A stretch of 61,486 nt of DNA from the NCBI GenBank assembly GCA_041493915.1, contig JBGPZT010000002.1:1-61486 (forward strand), written 5' to 3'. Below, piece after piece: positions 307 to 59,172 of this stretch. The position numbers and the translations under genes were made by a program. Each line of letters begins with the position of its first letter. Position 1 is the stretch's first letter. Under the pieces are notes generated by a model that saw only the letters and a program-made list of their open reading frames with translations, searched no databases and was not told the DNA's origin. Origin of the DNA: Candidatus Limnocylindria bacterium. Lineage in GTDB: Bacteria > Chloroflexota > Limnocylindria > P2-11E.

Positions 307-413
307 GCGCTGGACATCGCGTACGAGCACATCGGCCGGCCGACGCGTGCGAGCGTGCTGCTGGTCCCGCACGCGCTTCACACGCTCCCGGTCGTCCAGC
401 CGCGCGCCGTCGC

Positions 414-1379
414 GTGAGCGCGGCCATGTCCAAGGCCGAGCGTCGCCGCCGGCCGCTCTCGAGCGAACAGCTCGCTCGGCTCCGCGACGCACTGGATCCT
501 GACGCCACTGACGTCAGCGCCCGGTCGCTTCTAGGTGGTGTGGACACCGCGACGTATGCGCTGCGACTCGCGCGCGACGGACGTGTACGCGAGGTCGTCG
601 TGCGCGTCTACCGCGACTGGGAGGGCGACGCCGCCGCGGCCGTGCAGCGCGAGCACGGCGTTCTCACCGCGGTCGCAACGGTGTCCGCGCTCACACCGCG
701 GCCGATCCTCGCTGATCCCTCGGGTGACCTGATCGGCGAACCGCTCATCGTCATGTCACTCCTCCCCGGTGCGCCGCAACCACCGACCGGGCAGGACGAT
801 GCGTGGACCGAACAGCTCGCGAGCGCTATGGCGGACGTGCACGCGACGCGGCTTGAAAGCCTGCCGAGCGACTTCCCGCGTCACGGAACAGCGGCGGAGC
901 GGCTCGCGCGGATCCTCAAAAGAGGCTCCGAGGTGCGCGATCCGCTGTGGGAGACCGTCGCGTCGACCCTCACGCCCATCGCGGCCCGCGTCCGAGCGAA
1001 TCCTCCGACGCTCATTCACGGAGACTTCTGGTTCGGCAACACGATCTGGCAGAACGGCAGCCTCACCGGCATCATCGATTGGGACGGTGCGGCCATCGCC
1101 GATCCTGCGCGGGATGTCGCCGGCGCGCGGAATGATCTCGCGCTGCTGAGCGGAGCGCGCGCGGCCGATCTCTTCCTGGCGCGTTACGAGTCAGCGCGCG
1201 GCCCATTGCACGATGTCGCGTTCTGGGATCTCTTGACCTCGCTCCCGCCGATCCGGTGGCTTCCAGACTGGGTCGAGGGCTACACCGAGCTCGGCCTTGA
1301 GCTCTCGCTCGCGGAAGCGCGCGCGCGGCTCGAGGCGCACGTCGCGGACGCGCTGGGCCGCCTCGAGCGCCCCGCGTGA
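414..1379 (+). CDS. Aminoglycoside/choline-kinase-like phosphotransferase (APH family)
   Basis: Has the catalytic loop HGDFWFGNTIW (HxDxxxxN) and the metal site IIDWDGAAIADPARD, in a 321-aa protein-kinase-like fold. Confidence 0.75.
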   Translation: MSAAMSKAERRRRPLSSEQLARLRDALDPDATDVSARSLLGGVDTATYALRLARDGRVREVVVRVYRDWEGDAAAAVQREHGVLTAVATVSALTPRPILADPSGDLIGEPLIVMSLLPGAPQPPTGQDDAWTEQLASAMADVHATRLESLPSDFPRHGTAAERLARILKRGSEVRDPLWETVASTLTPIAARVRANPPTLIHGDFWFGNTIWQNGSLTGIIDWDGAAIADPARDVAGARNDLALLSGARAADLFLARYESARGPLHDVAFWDLLTSLPPIRWLPDWVEGYTELGLELSLAEARARLEAHVADALGRLERPA

Positions 1380-1408
1380 CTTGGCGCGTCACTCGCTAGA
1401 GTCCCGCC

Positions 1409-1591
1409 GTGGGCTGTTGCCTGATGGGCTGTCTGCGGCTCCTGTTCTTCCAGCTCTGGAAGGTGCTTCTGGCCGCGCTGATCGCGGTCGTGTTCACGCG
1501 GGTCGACTCGTACGTCGAGGGGCGCCACCCCGACAGCACCGCGGGCAAGGCTTGGCGGTCGTATCGCGGACGGGGGAAGAAGAAACCATAG
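1409..1591 (+). CDS. Hypothetical small membrane protein
   Basis: 60-aa ORF with a hydrophobic N-terminal half (LRLLFFQLWKVLLAALIAVVF) and a basic tail. No family recognised. Confidence 0.25.
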   Translation: MGCCLMGCLRLLFFQLWKVLLAALIAVVFTRVDSYVEGRHPDSTAGKAWRSYRGRGKKKP

Positions 1592-1610
1592 TCAATTAGC
1601 CTTCGGTCCT

Positions 1611-2489
1611 GTGCCGGTCGCGATCTTCGACATGGACGGCGTGCTCTATCGGGGCAGCATCCTCATGCCGCATGCGAAGGAGACGCTCGAGCGTTTGCGC
1701 CGCGCGGGCTGGCAGGTCTTCTTCGCGACGAACAACTCGACCGCGACAGGTGAGGAGTACGTCCAGCGGCTCGGCAGGCTCGGCCTCGGCGGCGACGGCG
1801 ATCACATCGTCACGAGCGCCTACGCGACCGCGCACTACCTGGAGCGACTCGATCCGAAGCCGCGCGATGTCTTCGTGGTCGGCGCGAACGGACTGCGTGA
1901 GGAGATACGCGCGACGGGCATCGCGGTGCGCGATGCGTCGTCGCTCCCGGGTCTCGAGCCGCCCGGCACGGCGGCGGCCGACGGCGTCGATCCCGGCGCG
2001 ATGCGGCGCTACCTCACCGGTGTCACGCTGCCGTCGTCCGCGGATACGGTCGTCGTCGGCCTCGACCTTCATGTGACTTACGCGAAGATCGCCGAGGCGC
2101 AGCGCTGTGTCCTCGCCGGCGCGCGATTTGTCTGCTCGAACCGCGACCGCGCCTATCCCGTCGAGGGACGGCTCCTACCGGGTGCGGGAGCGATCGTCGC
2201 GGCGATCGAGGTCGCGACCGGTCGCAGCGCGATCTGCATCGGGAAGCCGGAACCGTTCCTGTTCGAGGAGGTGCTGCGCCGGGCGGGCGAGCGGGACGCG
2301 GTCGTCATCGGCGACTCGACGGACTACGACATGGTGGCGGCGCATCGCATCGGCGCACGGGGCGTGCTCATCCTGACCGGCCTGACGGACGAGAGCGCGG
2401 TCGAGCGCGCGCGGGGGGAGGCGGTGCCGGACCGGGTGATCACGTCGCTGCGGGAGCTCTTCGCGCTGCCGGAGTTCGCCGGGGCCTAG
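1611..2489 (+). CDS. HAD-superfamily hydrolase, subfamily IIA (NagD-like)
   Basis: Has HAD motif I FDMDGVLY, motif II FATNNS and C-terminal GDSTDYDM. 292 aa. Confidence 0.8.
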   Translation: MPVAIFDMDGVLYRGSILMPHAKETLERLRRAGWQVFFATNNSTATGEEYVQRLGRLGLGGDGDHIVTSAYATAHYLERLDPKPRDVFVVGANGLREEIRATGIAVRDASSLPGLEPPGTAAADGVDPGAMRRYLTGVTLPSSADTVVVGLDLHVTYAKIAEAQRCVLAGARFVCSNRDRAYPVEGRLLPGAGAIVAAIEVATGRSAICIGKPEPFLFEEVLRRAGERDAVVIGDSTDYDMVAAHRIGARGVLILTGLTDESAVERARGEAVPDRVITSLRELFALPEFAGA

Positions 2490-2496
2490 GTGGTGG

Positions 2497-2691
2497 TCAC
2501 TCCCAGGTGATGCCGCGCCCGTGAAAGAACTCGCGCAGATTCTCGGTCTGTGAATCGCGGCCGCCGCGATCGGTGCCGAGCGGCGACGCCGCGAGGGCGT
2601 CGACCGTCGTCGCGATGAGCGACAGCGCGAGGAGCGCTGCGAACAGGACCGCGCCGAGCGAACGGAGCGGAGTGCGAGCTGCGGAGATCAC
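2497..2691 (-). CDS. Mini-protein 2 (64 aa, not in ORF track): N-terminal hydrophobic segment, C-terminus ...FFHGRGITWE
   Basis: The GTG start at 2691 overlaps the stop of the upstream mini-ORF (GTGA). It has a TM/signal-like stretch LGAVLFAALLALSLIATTV. It ends in the same xTWE tag as the subtilase tail repeats. Confidence 0.45.
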   Translation of the reverse strand: MISAARTPLRSLGAVLFAALLALSLIATTVDALAASPLGTDRGGRDSQTENLREFFHGRGITWE

Positions 2692-2867
2692 TCTTCCCAG
2701 GTGACGCCGACCGGTTCGAAGAGCTGCCAGACCCGCTCCGCCGGACCGACCGTCCAGGCAGTTTCGCGGCCAGCCGGGATGTCTTTCGCGAACGCGTTTC
2801 CTGTGCTCGCGAGAAGTGTCAACGCGAGCGTCGCGGCGAAAGCGAGTCGGGTGAGCGCCTTCTTCAT
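2688..2867 (-). CDS. Mini-protein 1 (59 aa, not in ORF track): secreted, C-terminus ...EPVGVTWEE
   Basis: The ATG at 2867 lies 12 nt after the HD-GYP stop and is preceded by GAGGGGGAA (Shine-Dalgarno). It has a classical signal peptide, MKKALTRLAFAATLALTLLASTGNAFA-KD. Its C-terminal DNA tcccaggtgacgcc matches the 15-bp repeat unit of the subtilase tail. Confidence 0.55.
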   Translation of the reverse strand: MKKALTRLAFAATLALTLLASTGNAFAKDIPAGRETAWTVGPAERVWQLFEPVGVTWEE

Positions 2868-2879
2868 GTCGTTCCCCCT

Positions 2880-4265
2880 CTACAAAGACACGCGAACGGC
2901 CTCGACGGCCTGCTGATAGACCTGCTGGTGCGGGCTCTCGGCGCCGCGCGCGCTCTTGCGCCGCTCGCCGACCACGGTCTTGATGAAGGCCTCGACCACC
3001 ACCGGGTTGAACTGGGTGCCGCTGTTGGCCCGCAGCTCGCGCAGCGCCTGCTTGGCGCTCATCGCCGGACGGTAGGGCCGGCTCGCCGTCATGGCCTGGT
3101 AGGCGTCGGCGACGGCGATGATCTGCGCCGCCAGTGGGATCCTGTCCGCGCGCAGACCCTGCGGGTAGCCGGTGCCGTCGAAGCGCTCGTGGTGGCTGAG
3201 CACGATCGGCCGGATGCGCTCGAGCATCGGCACGTTCGAGAGCAGGTTGGCGCCGATGACCGGGTGCGCCTTGACCTCGGCCCACTCGCGCGCGTCGAGA
3301 GCGCTGGGCTTGCGCAGCAGGTGCTCGGGCACCCCGATGGTGCCGATGTCGTGGAAGAGCGCCCCGAGCTTGATCGCCGAGAGCTCGTCGTCCGAGCACC
3401 CCAGGTGGGTGGCGACCTGAACCGCATAGAACATCGTCTGCGCCGCGCCCTTGGCGGTGCGCGACTCCTTGGCTTCCAGAGCGCCGATGAGCGCGCCGAT
3501 CACGGACAGATGCGATTCCTCCAGGCGGTCGTTGGTGCGCCGCAGCATGTCGTTGACCGACTGAAGCTCCTCGTTGCGCGCGCGGACCTCGCTGCTCTTG
3601 GCCATGTACAGCTTGAAGCTGTACCAGGCGACGGCCAGGGGTAGGGTGAAGACCACCACGCCGAAGACCCCGAGAGCCTGCGAGGCGAGCGCCAGCGCGG
3701 CGCCCTGCGCCGCGGTGGCCAGGAAGTTCACCGGCATCCAGCTGTAGTTGGTGCGCCAGACCGCCGTGAAGCTCTGGCGCTCGCTGATCGCGATGACCAG
3801 CGCGGTCGTGGCGGTGTTCACCAGGAAGTACGCCGCGGCCGAGACCGCGACGGCAACGAGAGTGAGGGCGATCTCACCGGGCGGCACCTGCCCGCCCGCC
3901 AGGCGGTACACGATGCCGCCGACGAAGGCCGACGTCGTAAGGGACCCGGCGTTGAAGAGGGCTTTGAGCAGGGGCTTGCGCCGCGGGGTGAAGGCATTCA
4001 CGCCGGCCTGGAACAGGCTGACGAGGACCGCGACCTCGGTGCCGTACAGGACGTAGCTGGCGATGACCGCGGCGAAGCTGATGGAGATGGCGCTGGAGCG
4101 GAAGAGGAACACCGGCATGCGCTGGGCGGCGGCGGCCAGACCGATGAGGATCGCCAGCATCAGGGGGTCGACGCGCTCGAAGCTCACCGTGCGCAGCGAC
4201 TGCGCCAGAGCGGCGGCACCGAGCGCCGCAACGAAGAGGACGTAGACGCGAAGTCCTTGCCTCAT
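2880..4265 (-). CDS. HD-GYP domain c-di-GMP phosphodiesterase-type protein with a polytopic membrane N-terminal domain
   Basis: Carries HDIGTIGVP ... HHERFDGTGYPQGL (HD plus GYP), preceded by about 7 hydrophobic segments and a coiled linker. The start is placed at MRQGLRVYVLF (4265), forming an ATGA overlap with the subtilase stop. The longer ORF-track N-terminus (to 4436) is the antisense reading of the subtilase repeat. Confidence 0.85.
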   Translation of the reverse strand: MRQGLRVYVLFVAALGAAALAQSLRTVSFERVDPLMLAILIGLAAAAQRMPVFLFRSSAISISFAAVIASYVLYGTEVAVLVSLFQAGVNAFTPRRKPLLKALFNAGSLTTSAFVGGIVYRLAGGQVPPGEIALTLVAVAVSAAAYFLVNTATTALVIAISERQSFTAVWRTNYSWMPVNFLATAAQGAALALASQALGVFGVVVFTLPLAVAWYSFKLYMAKSSEVRARNEELQSVNDMLRRTNDRLEESHLSVIGALIGALEAKESRTAKGAAQTMFYAVQVATHLGCSDDELSAIKLGALFHDIGTIGVPEHLLRKPSALDAREWAEVKAHPVIGANLLSNVPMLERIRPIVLSHHERFDGTGYPQGLRADRIPLAAQIIAVADAYQAMTASRPYRPAMSAKQALRELRANSGTQFNPVVVEAFIKTVVGERRKSARGAESPHQQVYQQAVEAVRVSL

Positions 4266-5845
4266 CGTGGTGCGCCGTCCCACAGCGGATCTTGCTCCCG
4301 ACTTACGGTCTCCCACATGACGCCCTCCCAGCTGACGCTTTCCCATGTCACGCTCTCCCAGCTCACGCCTTCCCACGTCACGGCTTCCCAGGTCACGCCT
4401 TCCCATGTCACGCCATCCCAGGTGACGCCTTCCCATGTCGTGCCGTTACCCGCGACGCCGCTCTTCACGAGCGTCTGCATGAGCAACCGCGACGGGAGCA
4501 GATTCGTGTTCACGTCACGCCGGCTCGCCGTCAGCGCCTTTATCGCGTCGACGGCCTCCCGCGGCGTTCCCGCGAGATCGCGGCCGGACCCGATGACGGC
4601 GCCTTTGACCTTCGTCGGCGAGTAGTCCCGGTGTTGGCTGAGCACGAGCGCCGCGACGCCCGCGACCATCGCGCTCGACACCGACGTGCCCGACATCCGC
4701 AGGTAGAGCGTCGGATCGAAGCTCCGGCTCGACGTCTCGTGCCTGTCGCCGCCCTTGTCCATCGCCTCCGCCTTCGCGTCGCGCGAAGTAGCGGCGTTGG
4801 CGCGAAGTGACACGACTCGGCGGCCGGGCGCGAGCACGTCCGGCTTCGCGAAGCGGTCGAGTGTCAGACCGCGGCTGGAGAAGGGCGACTCGCGGTCGTC
4901 CTGCTCCGCGAGCGTGCCCTGGTCGTCGAAGCTCCCGACCGTGATCACGAACGGGTCGGCGCCGGGGGTCGAGACCTTACGTGCGCCCGGACCGTCGTTG
5001 CCCGCTGCGGCGACGACCGCGACGCCCGAGAACCACGCGGCCTCCGCGAGCGCCGCGAGCAGATCCGCGTGATACGAGGAGGTCTGCGTCGTGCCGATCG
5101 AGAGGTTGAGGACGCCGATGCCGAACTGCTTGCGATGCTTGAGCAGCCAATCGAACGCCGCGACCACGTCGTGCAAGCGCCCGTTGCCGTTCTTGTCCAG
5201 CACGCGCAGGTCGACGAGACGCGCGTCCGGAGCGACACCGCGGAACGTCTCGCCGTGACCGGCGATGACGCCTGCCAGGTGCGTACCGTGGCCGGCCGGA
5301 TCGAGCGACGTCGCGTTGTCCGCGACGAAGTTCATCCGGGCGACGACCTTGCCCGCCGGAAGATCGGGGTGCTTACCGATGCCGCTGTCCATGAGCGCGA
5401 CGACGACGCCGGCTCCGGTCGAGCGGGACCACGCGCTCGGGGCGTGGATCGCCGCGTTGCCGACGCTGACCGCACTCGAGTTGTCGCCGATGCGGTCGAG
5501 ATCGCCCGGGCCGCCGCCCGTCGCGACGACGGTCGCGTCGGTGGTGGCACGCAGCACCGAGCGATCGGTGCCGATGTTCAAGAGAGCGGCGTCACTCACG
5601 CGGGCACTCACGATGTCGACGCCGTCGAAGACGGTGACGTCGGTGGAGCCGGCGGTGATCAGGTCCCTGGCCACGGTCCATGCCGTGCCCATGGAGACCT
5701 GGAGAAGAGCAACGTCACCGGCGTGAAGGGCGGGATCGACGTCGACGCGCGCGACGGAGGCGCGGCCAGTCCACGCGGTCCCGATGAGCAGCGCGAAGAT
5801 CAAGATCGGCGTGATCGATCGTCCAACGGCGCGCTGCTTCCCCAC
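4262..5845 (-). CDS. Secreted S8 subtilisin-family serine peptidase with a C-terminal V[TS]WEx pentapeptide repeat tail
   Basis: The catalytic triad contexts are ALMDSGIGKHPDL (Asp), HGTHLAGVIAG (His) and MSGTSVSSAMVAGVAAL (Ser). It has an N-terminal signal/TM. The tail is TTWEGVTWDGVTWEGVTWEAVTWEGVSWESVTWESVSWEGVMWET. Confidence 0.9.
   Translation of the reverse strand: MGKQRAVGRSITPILIFALLIGTAWTGRASVARVDVDPALHAGDVALLQVSMGTAWTVARDLITAGSTDVTVFDGVDIVSARVSDAALLNIGTDRSVLRATTDATVVATGGGPGDLDRIGDNSSAVSVGNAAIHAPSAWSRSTGAGVVVALMDSGIGKHPDLPAGKVVARMNFVADNATSLDPAGHGTHLAGVIAGHGETFRGVAPDARLVDLRVLDKNGNGRLHDVVAAFDWLLKHRKQFGIGVLNLSIGTTQTSSYHADLLAALAEAAWFSGVAVVAAAGNDGPGARKVSTPGADPFVITVGSFDDQGTLAEQDDRESPFSSRGLTLDRFAKPDVLAPGRRVVSLRANAATSRDAKAEAMDKGGDRHETSSRSFDPTLYLRMSGTSVSSAMVAGVAALVLSQHRDYSPTKVKGAVIGSGRDLAGTPREAVDAIKALTASRRDVNTNLLPSRLLMQTLVKSGVAGNGTTWEGVTWDGVTWEGVTWEAVTWEGVSWESVTWESVSWEGVMWETVSREQDPLWDGAPR
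4311..4445 (-). repeat. Nine tandem 15-bp coding repeats (plus-strand unit tcccaNgtcacgcct, encoding x-V-T/S-W-E)
   Basis: Counted directly: units start at 4311, 4326, 4341, 4356, 4371, 4386, 4401, 4416 and 4431. Differences between units fall mostly at codon third positions. Confidence 0.9.
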
Positions 5846-6063
5846 GGGTGTAGTTGTGGGCCCCGGTCACTCTTTGGTCATCACCCGCCTGGGTGAAGGG
5901 GAGTACGTGCGAGTTACACCCGATACGCGACAGAGACCCGCTTTCCGTCGCGGATGCGGACGACTAGATCAATCGGTGTAGAGCCGGCGCCTCGACGACC
6001 GCGAATTGATGAGGAGCGTCTGCGCCGCGCTACTGAGAGATGACAGAGCGCGATGCCGGCGCG

Positions 6064-7074
6064 CTACGGGTGCACGCCGACCGCGCGCATCGCGACCGCG
6101 ATGACGTAGCCCAGGGCGAAGCAACCCGGGATCGTGAGCACCCACGCGGTGACGATCCGTCCCGCTATACCCCAGCGCACGGCGGACAGGCGGCGGGTGG
6201 AACCGACGCCGAGGATCGCGCCGGAGATGGCGTGCGTCGTGGAGATCGGGATGCCGAAGCGCGTCGCGATCTCGATCACGGTGCCGGCGGTCGTCTCCGC
6301 CGCGAATCCCTGCACGGGCGTGAGCTTGGTGATCCGCACGCCCATCGTCTTCATGATCCGCCAGCCACCGGTCGCGGTGCCGACGCCGATGCTGATCGCG
6401 CAGACGACCTTCACCCAATCCGGGATGTAGAAATCGGCGCCGGTGGGAACGGCACCATACGCGGCCAGCGCGAGCGCGATGATGCCCATCGTCTTCTGCC
6501 CGTCGTTGCCGCCGTGGCTGAAGGCCATGTACGCGCTCGAAAGGATCTGCGCGCGCCCGAAGAAGCGCTGCACCCAGCTGAATGACGTGTTCCGCAGGAT
6601 CCAATAGAGCGCGAGCATGAGGAGGTATCCGACGAGGAATGCGAGCGCCGGAGAGTACACGACACCGAAGGTCGTCTTCTCTAATCCACCGACGATGACC
6701 ACGTCCGCGCCGTGGATGGCGACGGAGGCCCCGATGATCGAGAAGATCAGCGCGTGGCTCGATGATGTCGGGAGCGCGAAGAACCAGGTGAGGAGGTCCC
6801 ACGCGATCGCAGCGATGAGCGCGGCGATGACGAGGTCCTGCGTGACCACTTTCGCGTCGACGATGCCGTTCCCGACCGTCTTCGCCACGGCGACGCCCGA
6901 GAGCGCGCCGACGAGGTTCAGGCTCCCGGCCATCAGCACGGCCTGCCCCGGGGTCAGGACGCGTGTCGCCACGACGGTCGCGATGGCATTCGCCGCGTCG
7001 TGGAAGCCGTTGACGTACTCGAAGATCACGCCGAGCAGGACGACGAGCGCGAGCAGGATGAACGCGTTATCCAA
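6064..7074 (-). CDS. pit: Inorganic phosphate transporter, PiT family
   Basis: Has NGFHDAANAIATVV in the N-terminal half and GGNDGQKTMG in the second half (duplicated PHO4 signature). Polytopic, 336 aa. Confidence 0.9.
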   Translation of the reverse strand: MDNAFILLALVVLLGVIFEYVNGFHDAANAIATVVATRVLTPGQAVLMAGSLNLVGALSGVAVAKTVGNGIVDAKVVTQDLVIAALIAAIAWDLLTWFFALPTSSSHALIFSIIGASVAIHGADVVIVGGLEKTTFGVVYSPALAFLVGYLLMLALYWILRNTSFSWVQRFFGRAQILSSAYMAFSHGGNDGQKTMGIIALALAAYGAVPTGADFYIPDWVKVVCAISIGVGTATGGWRIMKTMGVRITKLTPVQGFAAETTAGTVIEIATRFGIPISTTHAISGAILGVGSTRRLSAVRWGIAGRIVTAWVLTIPGCFALGYVIAVAMRAVGVHP

Positions 7075-7086
7075 GCCCGTTCGCTC

Positions 7087-7704
7087 CTAGCTGTGCTTGA
7101 TCACGATCATCTCGACGATGTTCGCGACATCCTCACAACGGTCGATCGCCACTTCGATCAGCGAGTGGATGTCCTTCCACTTGATGATCTCGATCGGGTC
7201 CGTGACGTTCGCGAAGAGGTCGCCCACTGCGTCGCGGAAGACCTGGTCGCCCTCGTTCTCGAAGGTGTGGATCTTGATCCAGTACGGCTCCAGGCCCTTG
7301 AGCCCTTCGAGCGCCTTCATCATCGTGACCATCTCGGTCGCCGCGCCGACCAGCGCCTTCACCTGGCGGATCGCCTGCGGCCGCACGCTCCGGACCTTGT
7401 AGAGCAGGATGAGCTCGCTCACGTCGTACGCGACGTCGGCGACGTCGTCGAGCTTCGAGGCGAGACCGATGATGTCCTCGCGGTCGAGCGGCGTAACGAA
7501 CGTCTCGTTCAGATTCTTGAAGATCGCATGGGTCAGCTTGTCGCCGTAGTGCTCGATCGCGTGGATGTCGCGCACCTTGCTCTCGACGTCGGTGAAATCG
7601 GTCAGCAACCGCTCGAGCGCGACCACCGCCTCGCGGCTGTTCGTCGCGTGCTGGTCGAACTGGGTGAAGAAGAAGCTCTTCTTCGGCATCAGCGACAGGC
7701 GCAT
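7087..7704 (-). CDS. DUF47 (PhoU-like) phosphate-transport accessory protein
   Basis: 205-aa helical protein immediately upstream of pit, the usual DUF47-PiT pair. Contains ...DREDIIGLASKLDDVADV... . Confidence 0.8.
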   Translation of the reverse strand: MRLSLMPKKSFFFTQFDQHATNSREAVVALERLLTDFTDVESKVRDIHAIEHYGDKLTHAIFKNLNETFVTPLDREDIIGLASKLDDVADVAYDVSELILLYKVRSVRPQAIRQVKALVGAATEMVTMMKALEGLKGLEPYWIKIHTFENEGDQVFRDAVGDLFANVTDPIEIIKWKDIHSLIEVAIDRCEDVANIVEMIVIKHS

Positions 7705-7748
7705 CCAGGTCCTCCTTCGCGGGACAGATACGAGACTCGTCGGTCAGG

Positions 7749-8819
7749 CTACGCCACTTCCCGTCTGATGGAGGCGACCGCGCCAACGGCCATCACGAGA
7801 CCGAAGACAATCAGGACGCCGATGTCGCGCAGCACGAGCGGGTCGGCGAGCTCGTAGCCCTTGATCATCACCGACCGCAGCGCCTCGTTCGCGTATGTGA
7901 GCGGAAGCACCGCGGAGACCGGTCGCAGGTAGTCGGGTAGCTGGTCCACGGGTATGAGCAATCCCGAGAGGAAGACCTGCGGCAGCAGGACGATCGGCAC
8001 GAACTGCACGGCCTGCAGCTCATTGCGTGCCGCAGCCGACACGAGCAGCCCGAGCGAGACCGCGCCGACGACGAGCACAGCTTCGACGATGAAGATCGTC
8101 GCGAGGTTGCCACGGTAATGGACCTGCAGAACGAAGACGGTGAAGAGCAGGATGACGATCGCCTGCAGCAGGGCGAAGAAGCTGAAGCCCGCAAGGTAAC
8201 CGACGACGAGCTCTCCGCGGCGGAGCGGCGTTGCCATCAGCCGCTCGAGGGTCCCTGTCGTGCGCTCGCGCAGGAACGACACCGCCGAGAGCAGGAAGAT
8301 GAAGAAGAAGGCGAAGAACGCGACGAGGACCGGCGCGAGATAGTCCAGGATCGAGTAGTCGGGTCCGCCGTAGAGCTGGTCGATCGTCACGCCTGGTCCG
8401 CTCAACGCCAGGTTGCCGCCCGCGACCGCGTCGGTGAGGGCCTTCTGGATCGCGCCGCCGATCGAGCCGCTCTCGAGCGGATCCGCGCCCTCGATCTGGA
8501 TGTGGAGTGTCGCGCCCTCGAGCCAGACGACGGCGTCGACCTGGCCGTCGCGCAGCTGCTGCGCGCCCTCGTCGAACGTGCCGCGCCGTCCGTGGATCGC
8601 GCTCGACGCGACGAAGCGGTCGACGATCGGCGCCGGCAGGTTGAGACGGTCCGTCGCGACGACGACGGTCGGGACGCGCTCGGTAGCCGAACCCCAGACC
8701 GCGCCGACGAGCGATAACACGACGATCGGCGCGGCGAAAAGCAGCCCCAGCGACCGCCGATCGCGGCGGAAGCCGAGGACGATCCGCTTCGCGACAGCGC
8801 GGACGCGATGCGGATCCAT
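7749..8819 (-). CDS. ABC-2 type transporter permease
   Basis: Has an N-terminal TM, a large extracytoplasmic loop and five C-terminal TMs, with ...FLRERTTGTLERLMATPL... typical of ABC-2 exporters. ATGA-type junction with the ATPase gene. Confidence 0.8.
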   Translation of the reverse strand: MDPHRVRAVAKRIVLGFRRDRRSLGLLFAAPIVVLSLVGAVWGSATERVPTVVVATDRLNLPAPIVDRFVASSAIHGRRGTFDEGAQQLRDGQVDAVVWLEGATLHIQIEGADPLESGSIGGAIQKALTDAVAGGNLALSGPGVTIDQLYGGPDYSILDYLAPVLVAFFAFFFIFLLSAVSFLRERTTGTLERLMATPLRRGELVVGYLAGFSFFALLQAIVILLFTVFVLQVHYRGNLATIFIVEAVLVVGAVSLGLLVSAAARNELQAVQFVPIVLLPQVFLSGLLIPVDQLPDYLRPVSAVLPLTYANEALRSVMIKGYELADPLVLRDIGVLIVFGLVMAVGAVASIRREVA

Positions 8820-57904: not shown

Positions 57905-57995
57905 GCGAGACCCGACGAAACGGCAAACCCGTCGCGAGGCGGGGACGCAAAGCCTCCGGACTCGATAGCGAGTTAGCGGGGTTCCCGAAACGAGG
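57905..57995 (+). promoter_or_regulatory. c-di-GMP-I (GEMM-I) riboswitch aptamer in the 5' leader of the peptidase gene
   Basis: GGCAAACC-CGTC-GCGA-GGCG-GGGACGCAAAGCCTCCGG...TAGCGGGGTTCCCGA matches the Vc2-type core GGCAAACC-AUUC-GAAA-GAGU-GGGACGCAAAGCCUCCGG...UAGCGGGGUUACCGA. That includes a same-length P2 hairpin with a GNRA loop. The SD GAGGA and ATG 58003 follow directly. Confidence 0.8.
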
Positions 57996-58002
57996 ATGAG
58001 CA

Positions 58003-59172
58003 ATGAAACGCCTTCTGACCGTCGCGGGCGCCGGCATGCTGGCGCTGCTCGCCCTGGTGTTCGTGTGGCATGGGCAAGCAAGCGCGAGTGACAGCCCGAC
58101 GTGCGCTCCGACCACCGGATTCATCCCTCAGTTCTGCGTCAACGTGCCCGTCGGCATGATCGCGCGGCGCGAGACCACCGTTCGTCTGGCGACAGTTCTC
58201 ACGGCGCACGCCGAGGTCCGCGTCGAGGCAGGCGTGCCGGCAACGGAGATCATCCGCCTCGCATCGAGCGTCGATAGCGCGATCGCCCGGGTAGAGCGCG
58301 TCTTCGACCGCCCGTTCCCGACCAAGCCGCGCATCCTCGTCTTCGCGACGAGCGCGAGCTTCGCGCGCGGTACGCAGGACCTCTTCGGCTACTCGCCGGA
58401 GACCGCAGCGATGGTCGCGGCCTCGTACGGCGGCGTGTTCGATCCGCAGACGCTCACGATCGCGGTGGGGTGGCAGTTCACCACCCGCGCGAACCTACCC
58501 GATCTCCTCGCGCATGAGCTCACGCACCTCGCGACACGCGAGATCGTCGGCCAAGACGCCATCCTTCCTGCATGGTTCGAGGAAGGGCTCGCGGCGCAGA
58601 TCGAGGCCGGCGACGCTGGAATCAACAGCGACGCGCAGCTCGCGGCGCGTTCGCTCCTCGCGAACACCCCGCGCACGCTCGATACGATCGCGACGCTGGC
58701 TCAGTGGCACCGCGCGTACGCCGAGATCGGCGTCGCCCTCTACGCCGTCGCGGCCGAGACCGTCAGCGTCATGGAAACCCAGATCGGTCGCGACGAGGTG
58801 TTCGCGGTCCTCGCCGAGGTCGGACGCGGCGCGCGCTTCGAGGATGCCTACCGGGCGCGTGCCGGCGAGGGTCCGGGTGAGTTCATCGCCCGCTTCACCG
58901 GCGATCTCGCGGTCCATCCGAGCGTCGTGGTCGGCACTGTGGCCGACAGCAGCGGCAACCTCCGGTGGACGCTTGTGGGATTCGCGCCGAATAGCGACGT
59001 GCACGTCACGATCCGCGGGAAGAGGTACGACCTGGCGTACGGGGTCCGCACCGACGGGATCGGGATGTACCGCGGGACCTTCGGATCGACGGCCGCTCTC
59101 GGCACCTACACGCTGACGGCCCAGACGGCGGCGGCGAGCGCGACGGCGACGATCGACACCGCGTCGCGCTAG
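58003..59172 (+). CDS. Secreted zinc metallopeptidase, Peptidase_MA-like (HExxH ... EEG)
   Basis: Has the signal peptide MKRLLTVAGAGMLALLALVFV, LLAHELTHLATREIVG, a downstream PAWFEEGLAAQ, and a C-terminal beta-rich domain. Confidence 0.7.
   Translation: MKRLLTVAGAGMLALLALVFVWHGQASASDSPTCAPTTGFIPQFCVNVPVGMIARRETTVRLATVLTAHAEVRVEAGVPATEIIRLASSVDSAIARVERVFDRPFPTKPRILVFATSASFARGTQDLFGYSPETAAMVAASYGGVFDPQTLTIAVGWQFTTRANLPDLLAHELTHLATREIVGQDAILPAWFEEGLAAQIEAGDAGINSDAQLAARSLLANTPRTLDTIATLAQWHRAYAEIGVALYAVAAETVSVMETQIGRDEVFAVLAEVGRGARFEDAYRARAGEGPGEFIARFTGDLAVHPSVVVGTVADSSGNLRWTLVGFAPNSDVHVTIRGKRYDLAYGVRTDGIGMYRGTFGSTAALGTYTLTAQTAAASATATIDTASR

What the first reader, a model, noticed from the sequence alone, without database searches (positions are those of the whole stretch)
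2497..5845. Subtilase with a tail of nine V[TS]WEx pentapeptides, coupled to an HD-GYP membrane protein and two mini-proteins ending in the same tag
Seen directly: the S8 peptidase ends ...NGTTWEG VTWDG VTWEG VTWEA VTWEG VSWES VTWES VSWEG VMWET VSREQDPLWDGAPR. Its stop overlaps (ATGA) the start of a polytopic HD-GYP protein. Twelve nt after the HD-GYP stop, behind a GAGGGGGAA ribosome-binding site, a 59-aa signal-peptide protein ends ...EPVGVTWEE. A 64-aa protein overlapping it by GTGA ends ...HGRGITWE. So four consecutive genes share one operon, and three of them carry the same rare W-E motif at or near the C-terminus. I know of no named family or sorting signal with this motif.

Possible readings (inference):
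- (a) A peptide-signal or pro-peptide system. The protease would release or recognise xVTWE peptides and the membrane HD-GYP would convert that into c-di-GMP turnover. C-terminal-derived peptide pheromones such as XIP/SHP are only a conceptual precedent.
- (b) The tail is a pseudo-substrate or docking array that the mini-proteins compete with.
- (c) A new C-terminal sorting or anchoring tag.
Basis: partly seen in the sequence, partly recalled or inferred. Interest (0 to 1): 0.8.

Follow-up and report, generated by a model that had tools for sequence, protein, structure and literature searches.

The report
Tryptophan-repeat subtilase paired with MASE9 sensor
A secreted protease with a tail of repeated tryptophan-containing five-residue units, a membrane c-di-GMP enzyme and two tiny secreted proteins ending in that same unit form a conserved, undescribed gene module that gives a first clue to what the MASE9 membrane sensor detects.

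Summary
On the minus strand, a pro-subtilase (4262-5845) ends in nine x-V-[TS]-W-[ED] units. Its stop overlaps (ATGA) the start of a MASE9/HD-GYP membrane protein (2880-4265). Two signal-peptide mini-proteins follow, ending GVTWEE and GITWE. In six frames of the 61-kb window, [VI][TS]WE occurs eight times, all in this operon (shuffles: 0.4).

The module is conserved in about 80 soil-metagenome loci of Candidatus Limnocylindria (Chloroflexota). The final unit of the mini-proteins is invariant, and dN/dS is about 0.4.

Tryptophan pentapeptide tails turn out to be widespread on S8 peptidases. No Pfam or NCBIfam model, solved structure or paper covers them. Of 36 such genes with enough downstream DNA, 27 are followed immediately by a MASE9 or MASE9-like membrane protein. 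Outputs vary: HD-GYP, GGDEF, GGDEF-EAL, histidine kinase or none. Hosts are labelled Chloroflexota, Actinomycetota and Symbiobacteriaceae.

In one Chloroflexia genome the tail unit is SITWD and a mini-protein ends in SITWD, so the two co-vary.

Best reading (inferred): the units are the element through which the protease, the mini-proteins and MASE9 communicate, probably as released or tethered ligands controlling c-di-GMP turnover. No mechanism has been shown.

The parts
4262..5845 (-). Pro-subtilase (S8 peptidase), 527 aa: signal peptide, I9-like N-propeptide, catalytic domain, helical linker and W-pentapeptide tail.
   Evidence: Pfam Peptidase_S8 at 3.5e-45. D153, H189, N283 and S388 are invariant in 61 homologues. 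The AlphaFold2 model best matches the pro-forms of Tk-SP and Tk-subtilisin.
5756..5845 (-). Signal peptide region of the S8 (about residues 1-30, MGKQRAVGRSITPILIFALLIGTAWTGRA|S).
   Evidence: Read directly. Residues 9-29 are nearly invariant in homologues. The model has a helix at 5-26. Cleavage is inferred.
5522..5746 (-). I9-like N-terminal propeptide (residues 34-108).
   Evidence: pLDDT is 77-97 with a beta-alpha-beta-beta-alpha-beta pattern. Foldseek's best matches are unautoprocessed pro-subtilisins.
4583..5416 (-). S8 catalytic domain (residues 144-421).
4307..4444 (-). W-pentapeptide tail: G + 9 units of x-V-[TS]-W-[ED] (residues 468-513), followed by a 14-residue end (4265-4306).
   Evidence: It is conserved position by position in 120 of 120 best homologues. 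AF2 pLDDT is 28-37 with no secondary structure. Pfam, NCBIfam and PDB give no match.
2880..4265 (-). MASE9/HD-GYP membrane protein, 461 aa. Its start overlaps the S8 stop (ATGA).
3570..4265 (-). MASE9 polytopic membrane sensor domain (residues 1-232; about 8 hydrophobic segments, N-in and C-in by the positive-inside rule, with very short outer loops).
   Evidence: Pfam PF20972 at 28.4 bits against a cut-off of 24.3. Alignment with the S8-linked partners of other lineages shows the shared RRKP...K..FN motif and an invariant N105. Topology is inferred from the sequence.
3000..3482 (-). HD-GYP catalytic domain (residues 262-422), with the HDIG and HHERFDGTGYP motifs intact.
   Evidence: HD_5 at 1.3e-35 and HD at 2.3e-17. 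The motifs were read.
2872..2880 (-). Shine-Dalgarno-like GAGGGGGAA, 4 nt upstream of the mini-protein 1 start codon.
   Evidence: Read directly.
2688..2867 (-). Mini-protein 1, 59 aa: signal peptide (AFA|KD), a GRETAWT motif, a variable linker and the C-terminal unit GVTWE+E (2691-2708).
   Evidence: There are 32 distinct orthologues; the last unit is GVTWE in 31 of 32. Endings are WE, WEE, WEQ or WED. Median dN/dS is 0.41.
2497..2691 (-). Mini-protein 2, 64 aa: GTG start in a GTGA overlap with mini-protein 1, a signal peptide, the stretch ...REFFHGRG, and the unit GITWE at the exact C-terminus (2500-2514).
   Evidence: There are 29 distinct orthologues and all end exactly in ...G[IVT][TS]WE. 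Median dN/dS is 0.38.

Best explanation
This is a conserved extracytoplasmic protease-sensor module.

Shown:
- A Sec-exported pro-subtilase with an intact catalytic triad carries a C-terminal array of x-Phi-x-W-[ED] pentapeptides.
- Its gene is translationally coupled to a polytopic MASE9 membrane protein. Here the cytoplasmic output of that protein is an HD-GYP c-di-GMP phosphodiesterase.
- In the Limnocylindria lineage, one or two Sec-exported mini-proteins display the same unit at their C-terminus.

Inferred:
- The W-unit is the common recognition element of the module.
- The most likely mechanism has three steps. After export and self-activation, the subtilase trims its own tail and the mini-proteins at the units. 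This exposes or releases short peptides ending in G-[VI]-[TS]-W-E. The MASE9 domain detects these amphipathic Trp peptides at the membrane interface.
- Detection changes HD-GYP activity, and so c-di-GMP level, in response to protease activity and/or cell density.
- The multi-copy tail would make the protease its own reporter substrate. The mini-proteins would add a diffusible signal or a competitor.
For: Conservation of the module:
- All 120 best S8 homologues (58-85% identity) keep the tail with unit-specific residues.
- Gene order is Pit - [S8 - MASE9/HD-GYP] x 1-2 - mini1 - mini2 - HAD in about 80 loci.
- Mini-proteins are present wherever downstream DNA exists. The final unit is invariant while the linkers vary, and dN/dS is about 0.4.

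Link to MASE9 rather than to a particular output:
- 27 of 36 S8 genes with a C-terminal W-tail and at least 700 nt downstream are followed on the same strand by a MASE9 or MASE9-like ORF. One more pair is divergent.
- The partner proteins carry HD-GYP, GAF-HD-GYP, GGDEF-HD-GYP, PAS-GGDEF-EAL, PAS-histidine kinase or no output domain.
- Pfam MASE9 is above its cut-off in the window protein and in L103, L138, L173, L206, L230 and L293.

Co-variation:
- In Chloroflexia locus L322 the tails are SITWD/AITWD repeats, and a 76-aa signal-peptide protein ends ...GTFSITWD.
- In L103 the tail is rich in ITWE and the mini-protein ends FGITWE.

Consistent with processing at the unit:
- The residues before the end (G-Phi-[ST]-W-E) are invariant. 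What follows varies by lineage: nothing, or E/Q/D, or 3-12 hydrophobic residues. This pattern is expected for recognition of the non-prime side by a subtilase.
- Several mini-protein 1 orthologues carry a second, internal GVTWEx unit.

Export and activity:
- Signal peptides are present on the S8 and on both mini-proteins, so all W-units are outside the cell.
- The catalytic residues are invariant.

From the literature: the MASE9 ligand is unknown and is predicted to bind within the membrane (bioRxiv 10.1101/2021.11.05.467447).
Against: - No cleavage, binding or signalling has been shown; every mechanistic step is inference.
- Mini-proteins were found only in the Limnocylindria-type lineages and in one Chloroflexia locus. 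They were not found next to the other MASE9-linked W-tail proteases, so they cannot be essential to the pair.
- A subfamily of W-tail S8s (VAWD units, 720-830 aa) in the same MAGs has no MASE9 neighbour. Many tails in the wider family have N, S or T after the Trp. The tail may therefore have a more general role.
- The position-specific conservation of the nine units within a clade fits a fixed structural or binding array at least as well as a string of identical released peptides.
- Trp at P2 or P1 with an acidic neighbour is not a typical subtilisin site. The loop lining the S1 pocket shows no conserved basic residue (consensus).
- Several partners were recognised only by my own profile, not by Pfam's MASE9 model.
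- The phylum labels rest on MAG binning.
Confidence: 0.4

Rival explanations
1. Tethered-ligand or docking model without release. The W-tail binds the MASE9 domain, or the membrane interface next to it, and holds the secreted protease on the cell surface at its sensor. Occupancy sets the output. The mini-proteins, with one to three units, compete for or cap the same site.
For: - Stand-alone MASE9-like proteins with no output domain follow W-tail S8 genes in L322, L226 and L327. This suggests a receptor or anchor role that does not need signalling.
- Unit-specific conservation of the array fits a fixed binding surface.
- Monoderm hosts need a way to retain secreted enzymes.
- The best NCBIfam match of the S8 is mycosin, a membrane-tethered subtilase that works within a membrane complex, although the match is below its cut-off.
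- The two genes are translationally coupled.
Against: - The outer loops of MASE9 are only about 3-9 residues long (sequence; paper).
- AF2 gives no folded tail.
- The exact ...WE C-terminus of mini-protein 2 in 29 of 29 orthologues, and the variable extensions after WE elsewhere, look more like a free-end or processing requirement.
Confidence: 0.3
2. Generic envelope-retention repeat. W-pentapeptide arrays would be a cell-wall- or surface-polymer-binding module of secreted subtilases, functionally like choline-binding, GW or SLH repeats. The mini-proteins would use the same tag to stay on the surface. MASE9 would be a neighbour for regulatory reasons that do not involve the units.
For: - Copy number ranges from 4 to more than 36, with very homogeneous arrays in some proteins (GISWD x36, GMSWD x28), as is typical of expandable binding or spacer repeats.
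- The tails occur on S8s with other architectures (PD40 repeats) and in a subfamily without MASE9 neighbours.
- The residue after Trp can be D, E, N, S or T.
Against: - A single terminal unit on a mini-protein is unlikely to give avidity-based wall binding.
- Same-strand adjacency to MASE9 in 27 of 36 cases, across changing output domains and with start/stop overlap, argues for a direct functional tie.
- The mini-proteins carry the unit type of the MASE9-linked protease: VTWE, and SITWD in L322. They do not carry that of the unlinked paralogues (VAWD).
Confidence: 0.17
3. Pseudo-substrate or inhibitor model. The tail acts as a C-terminal auto-inhibitory or slowly cleaved extension occupying the active-site cleft. 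The mini-proteins are product-like inhibitors whose ...V-T-W-E carboxyl end sits in the S4-S1 subsites.
For: - By established knowledge, subtilases bind P4-P1 as an extended strand, and the C-terminus of their own propeptide stays bound like a product.
- Tk-SP, the best structural match, also has a C-propeptide.
- The C-terminus of the mini-proteins is invariant.
Against: - This model does not explain the conserved pairing with MASE9.
- Nine to 36 copies are unnecessary for auto-inhibition.
- The AF2 model does not place the tail in the cleft with any confidence.
Confidence: 0.1
4. RiPP-like natural-product precursors. The units would be core peptides that are modified on Trp and released.
For: Multi-copy core peptides and S8 maturation proteases exist in other RiPP classes (own knowledge). 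There are weak, below-cut-off S8-domain matches to the PatA and QhpE models.
Against: - No modifying enzyme is conserved in the locus. The neighbours are Pit/PhoU_div, a HAD hydrolase, APH and LarA.
- The precursors have Sec signal peptides rather than leader peptides.
- The units sit on the protease itself.
Confidence: 0.03

Closest known systems
Exported Phr/CSF-type pentapeptide signals of Bacillus, released from the C-terminus of Sec-exported pro-peptides by the subtilases subtilisin, Epr and Vpr (own knowledge).
   Same: - Small Sec-exported pro-proteins of about 40-70 aa.
- The conserved, probably active part is the last five residues.
- A subtilase acts outside the cell.
   Different: - Phr peptides are re-imported by Opp and bind cytoplasmic Rap (RRNPP) receptors. 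Here the linked partner is a polytopic MASE9 membrane protein with c-di-GMP or kinase outputs.
- The protease gene is in the operon and itself carries 9 or more copies of the unit.
- No Rap or Opp genes are in the locus.
Lantibiotic autoinduction: NisP (S8) with NisA and NisK (own knowledge).
   Same: An S8 protease, a peptide precursor and a membrane sensor are encoded together. The protease acts extracellularly.
   Different: - There are no LanB, LanC or LanM modification genes.
- There is no leader-peptide logic.
- The sensor domain is MASE9, and the output here is an HD-GYP rather than a kinase (a kinase is the output in L138 and L273).
Yeast alpha-factor precursor processed by the kexin Kex2 (S8) (own knowledge).
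   Same: Tandem copies of a short Trp-containing peptide are cut out by a subtilase-family protease.
   Different: This is a eukaryotic secretory pathway, with dibasic cleavage sites and a precursor separate from the protease. In the present case no cleavage has been shown.
DegS/RseA envelope-stress sensing of outer-membrane-protein C-termini (YxF-COOH) (own knowledge).
   Same: A free C-terminal aromatic tripeptide or pentapeptide acts as the signal that couples an extracytoplasmic serine protease to a transmembrane signalling step.
   Different: - It uses an S1 protease with a PDZ domain.
- The signal activates the protease, which then cleaves an anti-sigma factor.
- It belongs to a diderm envelope.
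Mycosins (MycP; TIGR03921), the closest curated S8 subfamily by score.
   Same: A secreted subtilase that works at the membrane together with polytopic membrane proteins.
   Different: - The score of 142 bits is below the 278.75-bit cut-off.
- Mycosins have a C-terminal transmembrane anchor instead of a W-tail.
- No ESX/T7SS genes are in the locus.
Pentapeptide-repeat proteins (Rfr fold, consensus A[D/N][L/F]XX).
   Same: Period of five residues, a small or hydrophobic residue at i-2 and a large hydrophobic residue at i.
   Different: - Trp occupies every central position and Val/Ile occupies i-2.
- Pfam pentapeptide models give no match.
- AF2 predicts no beta-helix; pLDDT is about 30.
MASE9 sensor domain (Galperin and Chou, bioRxiv 10.1101/2021.11.05.467447).
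   Same: The N-terminal domain of the window's HD-GYP protein is a member of this family (28.4 bits against 24.3).
   Different: The paper reports no ligand and does not mention a protease, peptidase or subtilisin partner.

Membership tests
Peptidase S8 (subtilase) | Match to the Peptidase_S8 profile above its curated cut-off. | tested here: met
   PF00082 scores 155 bits against a cut-off of 21.8, over residues 144-421.
Peptidase S8 (subtilase) | Catalytic Asp-His-Ser triad and the oxyanion-hole Asn. | tested here: met
   D153, H189 (in GHGTH), N283 and S388 (in GTS) are invariant in 61 aligned sequences.
Peptidase S8 (subtilase) | N-terminal I9-type propeptide, i.e. a pro-enzyme. | tested here: met
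   AF2 residues 34-108 have pLDDT 77-97. The best Foldseek matches are the pro-forms 3AFG, 3WHI and 2Z2Z. Pfam Inhibitor_I9 itself did not match.
HD-GYP c-di-GMP phosphodiesterase | HD_5/HD domain with the HD and HHExxDGxGYP motifs. | tested here: met
   HD_5 at 1.3e-35. LFHDIG and HHERFDGTGYP were read.
HD-GYP c-di-GMP phosphodiesterase | Hydrolysis of c-di-GMP. | not testable with these tools
   This needs an enzyme assay.
MASE9 membrane sensor domain | Match to PF20972 above its gathering score, and about 8 hydrophobic segments at the N-terminus. | tested here: met
   28.4 bits against 24.3. Eight hydrophobic segments were read. The domain aligns with the partners of other W-tail S8s.
Pentapeptide-repeat (Rfr-fold) proteins | Match to the Pfam pentapeptide models, and a right-handed quadrilateral beta-helix. 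| tested here: not met
   No pentapeptide family at E <= 0.1 in the window protein or at E <= 0.001 in ten other tails. The tail has pLDDT 28-37 and no strands in AF2.
C-terminal sorting signals (LPXTG/sortase; PEP-CTERM, GlyGly-CTERM and similar) | A short motif followed by a transmembrane helix and a basic tail; a match to curated sorting-domain models. | tested here: not met
   The motif lies 0-1 residues from the stop in the mini-proteins, with no hydrophobic segment after it. NCBIfam gives no match to the tail or the mini-proteins.
RRNPP/Phr-type exported peptide signalling | A small Sec-exported pro-peptide whose C-terminal part is the signal. | tested here: inconclusive
   The signal peptides and the invariant C-terminal unit are present. 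Release of a peptide has not been shown.
RRNPP/Phr-type exported peptide signalling | A cognate cytoplasmic TPR receptor (Rap, NprR, PlcR or Rgg) encoded next to the peptide gene. | tested here: not met
   The neighbours are S8, MASE9/HD-GYP, Pit, PhoU_div, HAD, APH and LarA. The called genes carry no TPR or Rgg family.
Lantibiotic or RiPP gene cluster | Modification enzymes next to precursor genes that have leader peptides. | tested here: not met
   No such Pfam families are present in the conserved neighbourhood. The precursors carry Sec-type signal peptides.
Type VII secretion mycosin | TIGR03921 above its cut-off, and a C-terminal transmembrane anchor. | tested here: not met
   142.3 bits against a cut-off of 278.75. 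The C-terminus is the W-tail, not a hydrophobic helix.

The most novel reading that the evidence does not exclude
W-pentapeptide arrays would be a previously unrecognised class of extracytoplasmic ligand or tether. They would form the long-sought input of the MASE9 sensor domain.

In this reading a dedicated subtilase carries the ligand as a multi-copy tail. Lineage-specific 'dialects' of the unit (VTWE, SITWD, AIKWD, YWDQ) would be matched by small secreted proteins. Together they would make a protease-coupled peptide code that sets c-di-GMP level or kinase output in monoderm bacteria of at least three phyla.

A sub-variant applies to tails with an acidic residue after Trp. Membrane-interface binding of the unit could be gated by protonation or cations. 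On the Wimley-White interfacial scale (own knowledge), GVTWE is about +0.4 kcal/mol with Glu charged and about -1.6 kcal/mol with Glu neutral.
Probability: 0.35. Interest if true: 0.88.

Novelty: new variant of a known kind. Interest (0 to 1): 0.76.

Why it matters
- MASE-type membrane sensor domains head many c-di-GMP enzymes and kinases, yet the paper that defined MASE9 names no ligand and could only suggest that binding occurs within the membrane.
- A conserved, translationally coupled partner with an obvious candidate ligand (the W-unit) turns that open question into direct experiments: peptide binding, cleavage and phosphodiesterase assays.
- The work also defines an undescribed repeat class on bacterial subtilases. 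It is absent from Pfam, NCBIfam and the PDB.
- It shows real, conserved small proteins under 70 aa with a co-varying C-terminal tag. These occur in Limnocylindria, soil Chloroflexota known here only from metagenome assemblies.
- If peptides released by the protease control c-di-GMP, this would link extracellular proteolysis or cell density to second-messenger signalling in a new way.

Tried and rejected
- Full-text searches for the repeat strings (VTWEG, GVTWE, WDSVSWD and others) and for tryptophan-rich subtilase repeats returned only noise or nothing.
- Pfam and NCBIfam scans of the tail and the mini-proteins gave nothing above chance.
- A PDB sequence search with the tail gave only chance matches at E > 0.7.
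- AlphaFold2 of the full S8 with 61 homologues left the tail unmodelled (pLDDT about 30). It therefore says nothing about fold versus disorder.
- The promoter/terminator scan of 2300-6300 was uninformative. No riboswitch lies in the 219-nt leader of the operon.
- The first, loose DNA pattern (W[DE] at period 5) returned mostly non-coding or out-of-frame repeats. A stricter pattern worked.
- I searched for mini-proteins beside W-tail proteases of the D-type lineages (Dehalococcoidia, Symbiobacteriaceae, Actinomycetota and others). Only L322 has one. A last targeted scan for ITWD tails added two loci and no further mini-protein.
- I tried to deduce cleavage specificity from the loop lining the S1 pocket. 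No conserved basic residue is there, so I dropped the idea.
- The general pH-switch idea is weakened because many tails have N, S or T after the Trp.
- The reverse census (what fraction of all MASE9 proteins have a W-tail S8 neighbour) was not run. The remaining tools would have reached only close relatives.

Full report
**1. Checking the observation**

- The S8 peptidase (4262..5845, 527 aa) matches Pfam Peptidase_S8 at 3.5e-45.
- It ends in G + TTWEG VTWDG VTWEG VTWEA VTWEG VSWES VTWES VSWEG VMWET, followed by VSREQDPLWDGAPR.
- At the DNA level this is a 15-nt repeat with 8 copies at 79% matches. The copies differ at synonymous sites, so the array is old and kept by selection on the protein. 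It is not fresh slippage.
- The S8 stop overlaps the start of the next gene as ATGA.
- That gene (2880..4265, 461 aa) has an N-terminal MASE9 domain (28.4 bits, cut-off 24.3) and an HD-GYP domain with intact HDIG and HHERFDGTGYP motifs.
- Twelve nt after its stop, behind GAGGGGGAA, starts mini-protein 1 (59 aa, signal peptide, ends GVTWEE).
- Mini-protein 2 (64 aa, signal peptide, ends GITWE) starts in a GTGA overlap with mini-protein 1.

The motif is far more concentrated than chance would give. [VI][TS]WE occurs 8 times in the six-frame translation of the whole window, all within these three genes. Shuffles give a mean of 0.42. Only 2 of 795 stop-terminated segments end in the motif, and those two are neighbours.

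**2. Anatomy of the protease**

- An alignment of 61 homologues shows D153, H189, N283 and S388 invariant, so the enzyme should be active. The N-terminal 30 residues are conserved and form a signal peptide.
- AlphaFold2 models residues 34-108 with high confidence as an I9-like propeptide. Foldseek's best matches are unautoprocessed pro-subtilisins such as Tk-SP, Tk-subtilisin and pro-subtilisin E.
- The tail (473-527) has pLDDT 28-37 and no secondary structure. This cannot distinguish disorder from a fold that AF2 does not know.
- The public gene call for this protein (P0001, 476 aa) starts at an internal Met and so misses the signal peptide.

**3. Conservation of the module**

- All 120 best homologues (58-85% identity), annotated where named as Candidatus Limnocylindria or Chloroflexi, carry the tail. 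Residues are conserved unit by unit, for example ...SVSWEGVMWETV.
- Contigs carrying these proteins, plus 80 metagenome loci found with the HD-GYP protein, share one gene order. It is Pit/PhoU_div, then one or two [S8 - MASE9/HD-GYP] pairs, then mini1, mini2, then a convergent HAD hydrolase.
- The window has only the second pair. Other genomes have both pairs, or only the first, whose S8a is 566 aa with its own nine-unit tail.
- Every locus with enough downstream DNA has the mini-genes.
- Mini-protein 1 consists of a signal peptide (AFA|KD), GRETAWTD, a Pro-rich variable linker, often an internal GVTWEx unit, and a final GVTWE. That final unit is present in 31 of 32 distinct sequences and is followed by nothing, E, Q or D.
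- Mini-protein 2 ends exactly in ...REFFHGRG(LL)G[IV][TS]WE in 29 of 29 distinct sequences.
- In a more distant clade (S8 about 52% identical) a single mini-protein has QRGTAWTD and G[VI]SWE. This is followed by 0-12 hydrophobic residues such as LPFEF or LFGFGFDF.
- Median pairwise dN/dS is 0.37-0.41.

The mini-ORFs are therefore real genes. The unit is their most constrained part.

**4. The tail is one member of a wider, undescribed repeat class**

- A phmmer search with the 60-residue tail against 1.84 billion cluster representatives gave 990 hits.
- Many are spurious low-complexity ORFs. Forty-one of the best 150 contain an S8 domain followed by a C-terminal array with Trp every fifth residue. 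Unit types include GISWD x36, GMSWD x28, NVTWD, SVNWD, AVSWD, SVAWN, GATWS and GVRWT.
- The consensus is x-Phi-x-W-[D/E/N/S/T].
- No Pfam or NCBIfam model, PDB sequence or paper in the library covers this repeat.
- The unit loosely resembles the pentapeptide-repeat consensus A[D/N][L/F]XX. That membership fails on both the profile test and the structure test.

**5. The conserved partner is MASE9**

Two pattern scans of the species-representative genome collection recovered W-tail S8 genes from many MAGs. I built a profile from ten N-terminal membrane domains and searched all ORFs of these loci.

- Of 36 S8 genes with a C-terminal W-tail and at least 700 nt downstream, 27 are followed within 400 nt on the same strand by a MASE9 or MASE9-like ORF. 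One more pair is divergent.
- The partners' outputs differ:
  - HD-GYP in the Limnocylindria-type loci and in Dehalococcoidia.
  - GAF-HD-GYP in L230.
  - MASE9-GGDEF-MASE9-HD-GYP in two contigs of a Symbiobacteriaceae MAG and in L206 and L256.
  - PAS-GGDEF-EAL in L277.
  - PAS-histidine kinase with a receiver gene upstream in an Actinomycetota MAG (L138).
  - A histidine kinase in L273.
  - No output at all in L322, L226 and L327.
- Pfam's own MASE9 model passes its cut-off in seven of the partners tested. The others are recognised only by my profile and by a shared RRKP...K..FN motif with an invariant Asn. For those I write "MASE9-like".
- One sensor domain, a changing set of outputs and a constant neighbour is the classic signature of an input partner. 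The paper that defined MASE9 names no ligand and does not mention proteases.

**6. Limits of the association**

- A subfamily of larger S8s (720-830 aa) has ...VAWDS[VI]AWD...AFTLD tails and occurs in the same MAGs. It has no MASE9 neighbour despite 2-6 kb of downstream sequence. The tail as such is therefore not exclusive to MASE9.
- Mini-proteins were found only in the Limnocylindria-type lineages (including L103, L123, L217 and L242) and in one Chloroflexia genome.
- Phylum assignments rest on MAG binning. Several near-identical operons sit in bins labelled Eisenbacteria, Saccharimonadales, Betaproteobacteria or Acidoferrum, which are probably contaminated bins.

**7. Co-variation**

- In L322 (Chloroflexia) three tandem [S8 - stand-alone MASE9-like] pairs have tails made of SITWD/AITWD. 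A 76-aa signal-peptide protein in the array ends ...GTFSITWD.
- In L103 the tail is rich in ITWE and the mini-protein ends FGITWE.
- In the window's lineage the tail is VTWE/VSWE and the mini-proteins end GVTWE(E) and GI[TS]WE.
- The mini-proteins therefore follow the unit type of the MASE9-linked protease. They do not follow that of the unlinked VAWD paralogues.
- This is the strongest single argument that the shared motif is functional. It rests, however, on one D-type example.

**8. Mechanism (inference)**

All W-units are extracytoplasmic, because the S8 and the mini-proteins have signal peptides. MASE9 has only very short outer loops and is thought to sense within the membrane.

I rank four readings.

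- *Release (0.40).* The activated subtilase trims its tail and the mini-proteins at the units. The resulting ...G-Phi-[ST]-W-E peptides are sensed by MASE9.
  - In favour: the non-prime-side residues are invariant while what follows WE varies by lineage. Mini-protein 2 always has an exact WE end. Some mini-protein 1 orthologues have internal units.
  - Against: the unit-specific conservation of the array, and the absence of any sign of an acid- or Trp-adapted S1 pocket.
- *Tether or docking (0.30).* The tail binds MASE9 or the adjacent membrane interface and retains the protease there, and the mini-proteins compete. The stand-alone MASE9-like partners and the mycosin analogy favour this.
- *Generic envelope-binding repeat (0.17).* The variable copy number and the unlinked paralogues favour this. 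The tight linkage to MASE9 and the single-unit mini-proteins argue against it.
- *Pseudo-substrate or inhibitor (0.10) and RiPP (0.03).*

The general statement is much safer than any one mechanism, at roughly 0.85. It is that the protease tail, the mini-proteins and MASE9 form one functional module.

**9. Comparison with known systems and verdict**

The module works most like Gram-positive exported-peptide signalling, in which a subtilase releases a C-terminal pentapeptide (Phr/CSF), or like NisP/NisK.

It fails the defining features of those families:

- it has no RRNPP receptor,
- it has no Opp importer,
- it has no modification enzymes,
- it has no leader peptides.

It adds features with no precedent that I could find: the unit repeated on the protease itself, a MASE9 receptor, and c-di-GMP outputs.

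I file it as a new variant of a known kind. The more radical reading, a new ligand class that is the input of MASE9, stands at about 0.35. Interest is 0.76. The mechanism is unproven.

Noticed in passing
window 57912-57989 (+) and 58003-59172 (+): A c-di-GMP-I riboswitch (RF01051, 66.5 bits) lies directly upstream of a 389-aa signal-peptide protein with an HELTH zinc-peptidase-like motif. This is a second secreted, protease-like gene tied to c-di-GMP in the same window.
   Followed up: partly
L008 5367-6758 and 8584-9969; L011 5458-6849 and 8638-10023: In genomes with two modules, the two MASE9/HD-GYP genes are 98.7% identical at the nucleotide level, while their partner proteases S8a and S8b are only about 40% identical. 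In the more distant L014 the two HD-GYP genes are 67% identical. This points to gene conversion. The 1.4-kb direct repeats would explain the one-module deletion variants, such as the one in this window.
   Followed up: partly
L322 (CAVSIV010000001.1) 313-8000, minus strand: This Chloroflexia MAG has three tandem [S8 with SITWD tail - stand-alone MASE9-like protein] pairs and a mini-protein ending SITWD. The middle MASE9-like gene looks frameshifted, possibly from an assembly error.
   Followed up: partly
L222, L223, L228, L239, L240, L285, L286, L311; also L227: A second subfamily of W-tail S8 peptidases (720-830 aa, VAWD units, ending ...AFTLD, AFTYD or SFAFD) occurs in the same Limnocylindria MAGs without a MASE9 neighbour. 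In L227 the next gene looks like an adenylate/guanylate cyclase. In L228 it is an OmpR-type response regulator.
   Followed up: partly
window 5690-5704 and 5768-5782 (S8 residues 22-26 and 53-57); mini-protein 1, window about 2754-2768: A second Trp motif, GTAWT, recurs. It appears twice near the N-terminus of the S8, nearly invariant, and as GRETAWT(D) or RGTAWTD just after the signal peptide of mini-protein 1. Mini-protein 1 might derive from an internally deleted S8 gene.
   Followed up: no
window 4266-4436 (-), frame of the HD-GYP gene: The HD-GYP reading frame stays open for 171 nt upstream of its true start, running through the repeat and reading MGRRHLGWRDMGRRDLG.... This gives a mechanical 518-aa ORF. 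The public call of the S8 (P0001, 476 aa) starts at an internal Met and lacks the signal peptide. Both are pitfalls for automatic annotation.
   Followed up: yes
L001, L103, L222, L319 (record titles): Contigs carrying Limnocylindria-type operons sit in MAGs labelled Eisenbacteria, Saccharimonadales, Betaproteobacteria and Candidatus Acidoferrum. This is probably binning contamination, so phylum-level statements need care.
   Followed up: no
window 6064-7704 (-) and 1611-2489 (+): The operon is always flanked by a Pit phosphate transporter with its PhoU_div partner upstream and by a convergent HAD-IIA phosphatase-like gene downstream. The HAD stop lies 7 nt from the mini-protein 2 stop. Whether this phosphate-related context matters is unknown.
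   Followed up: no
L316 2509-3810 (-): In a Dehalococcoidia locus, a large polytopic membrane protein that I judged (unscanned) to look like a glycosyltransferase lies divergently upstream of the W-tail S8. Glycosylation of the Thr/Ser/Trp-rich tail was not examined.
   Followed up: no
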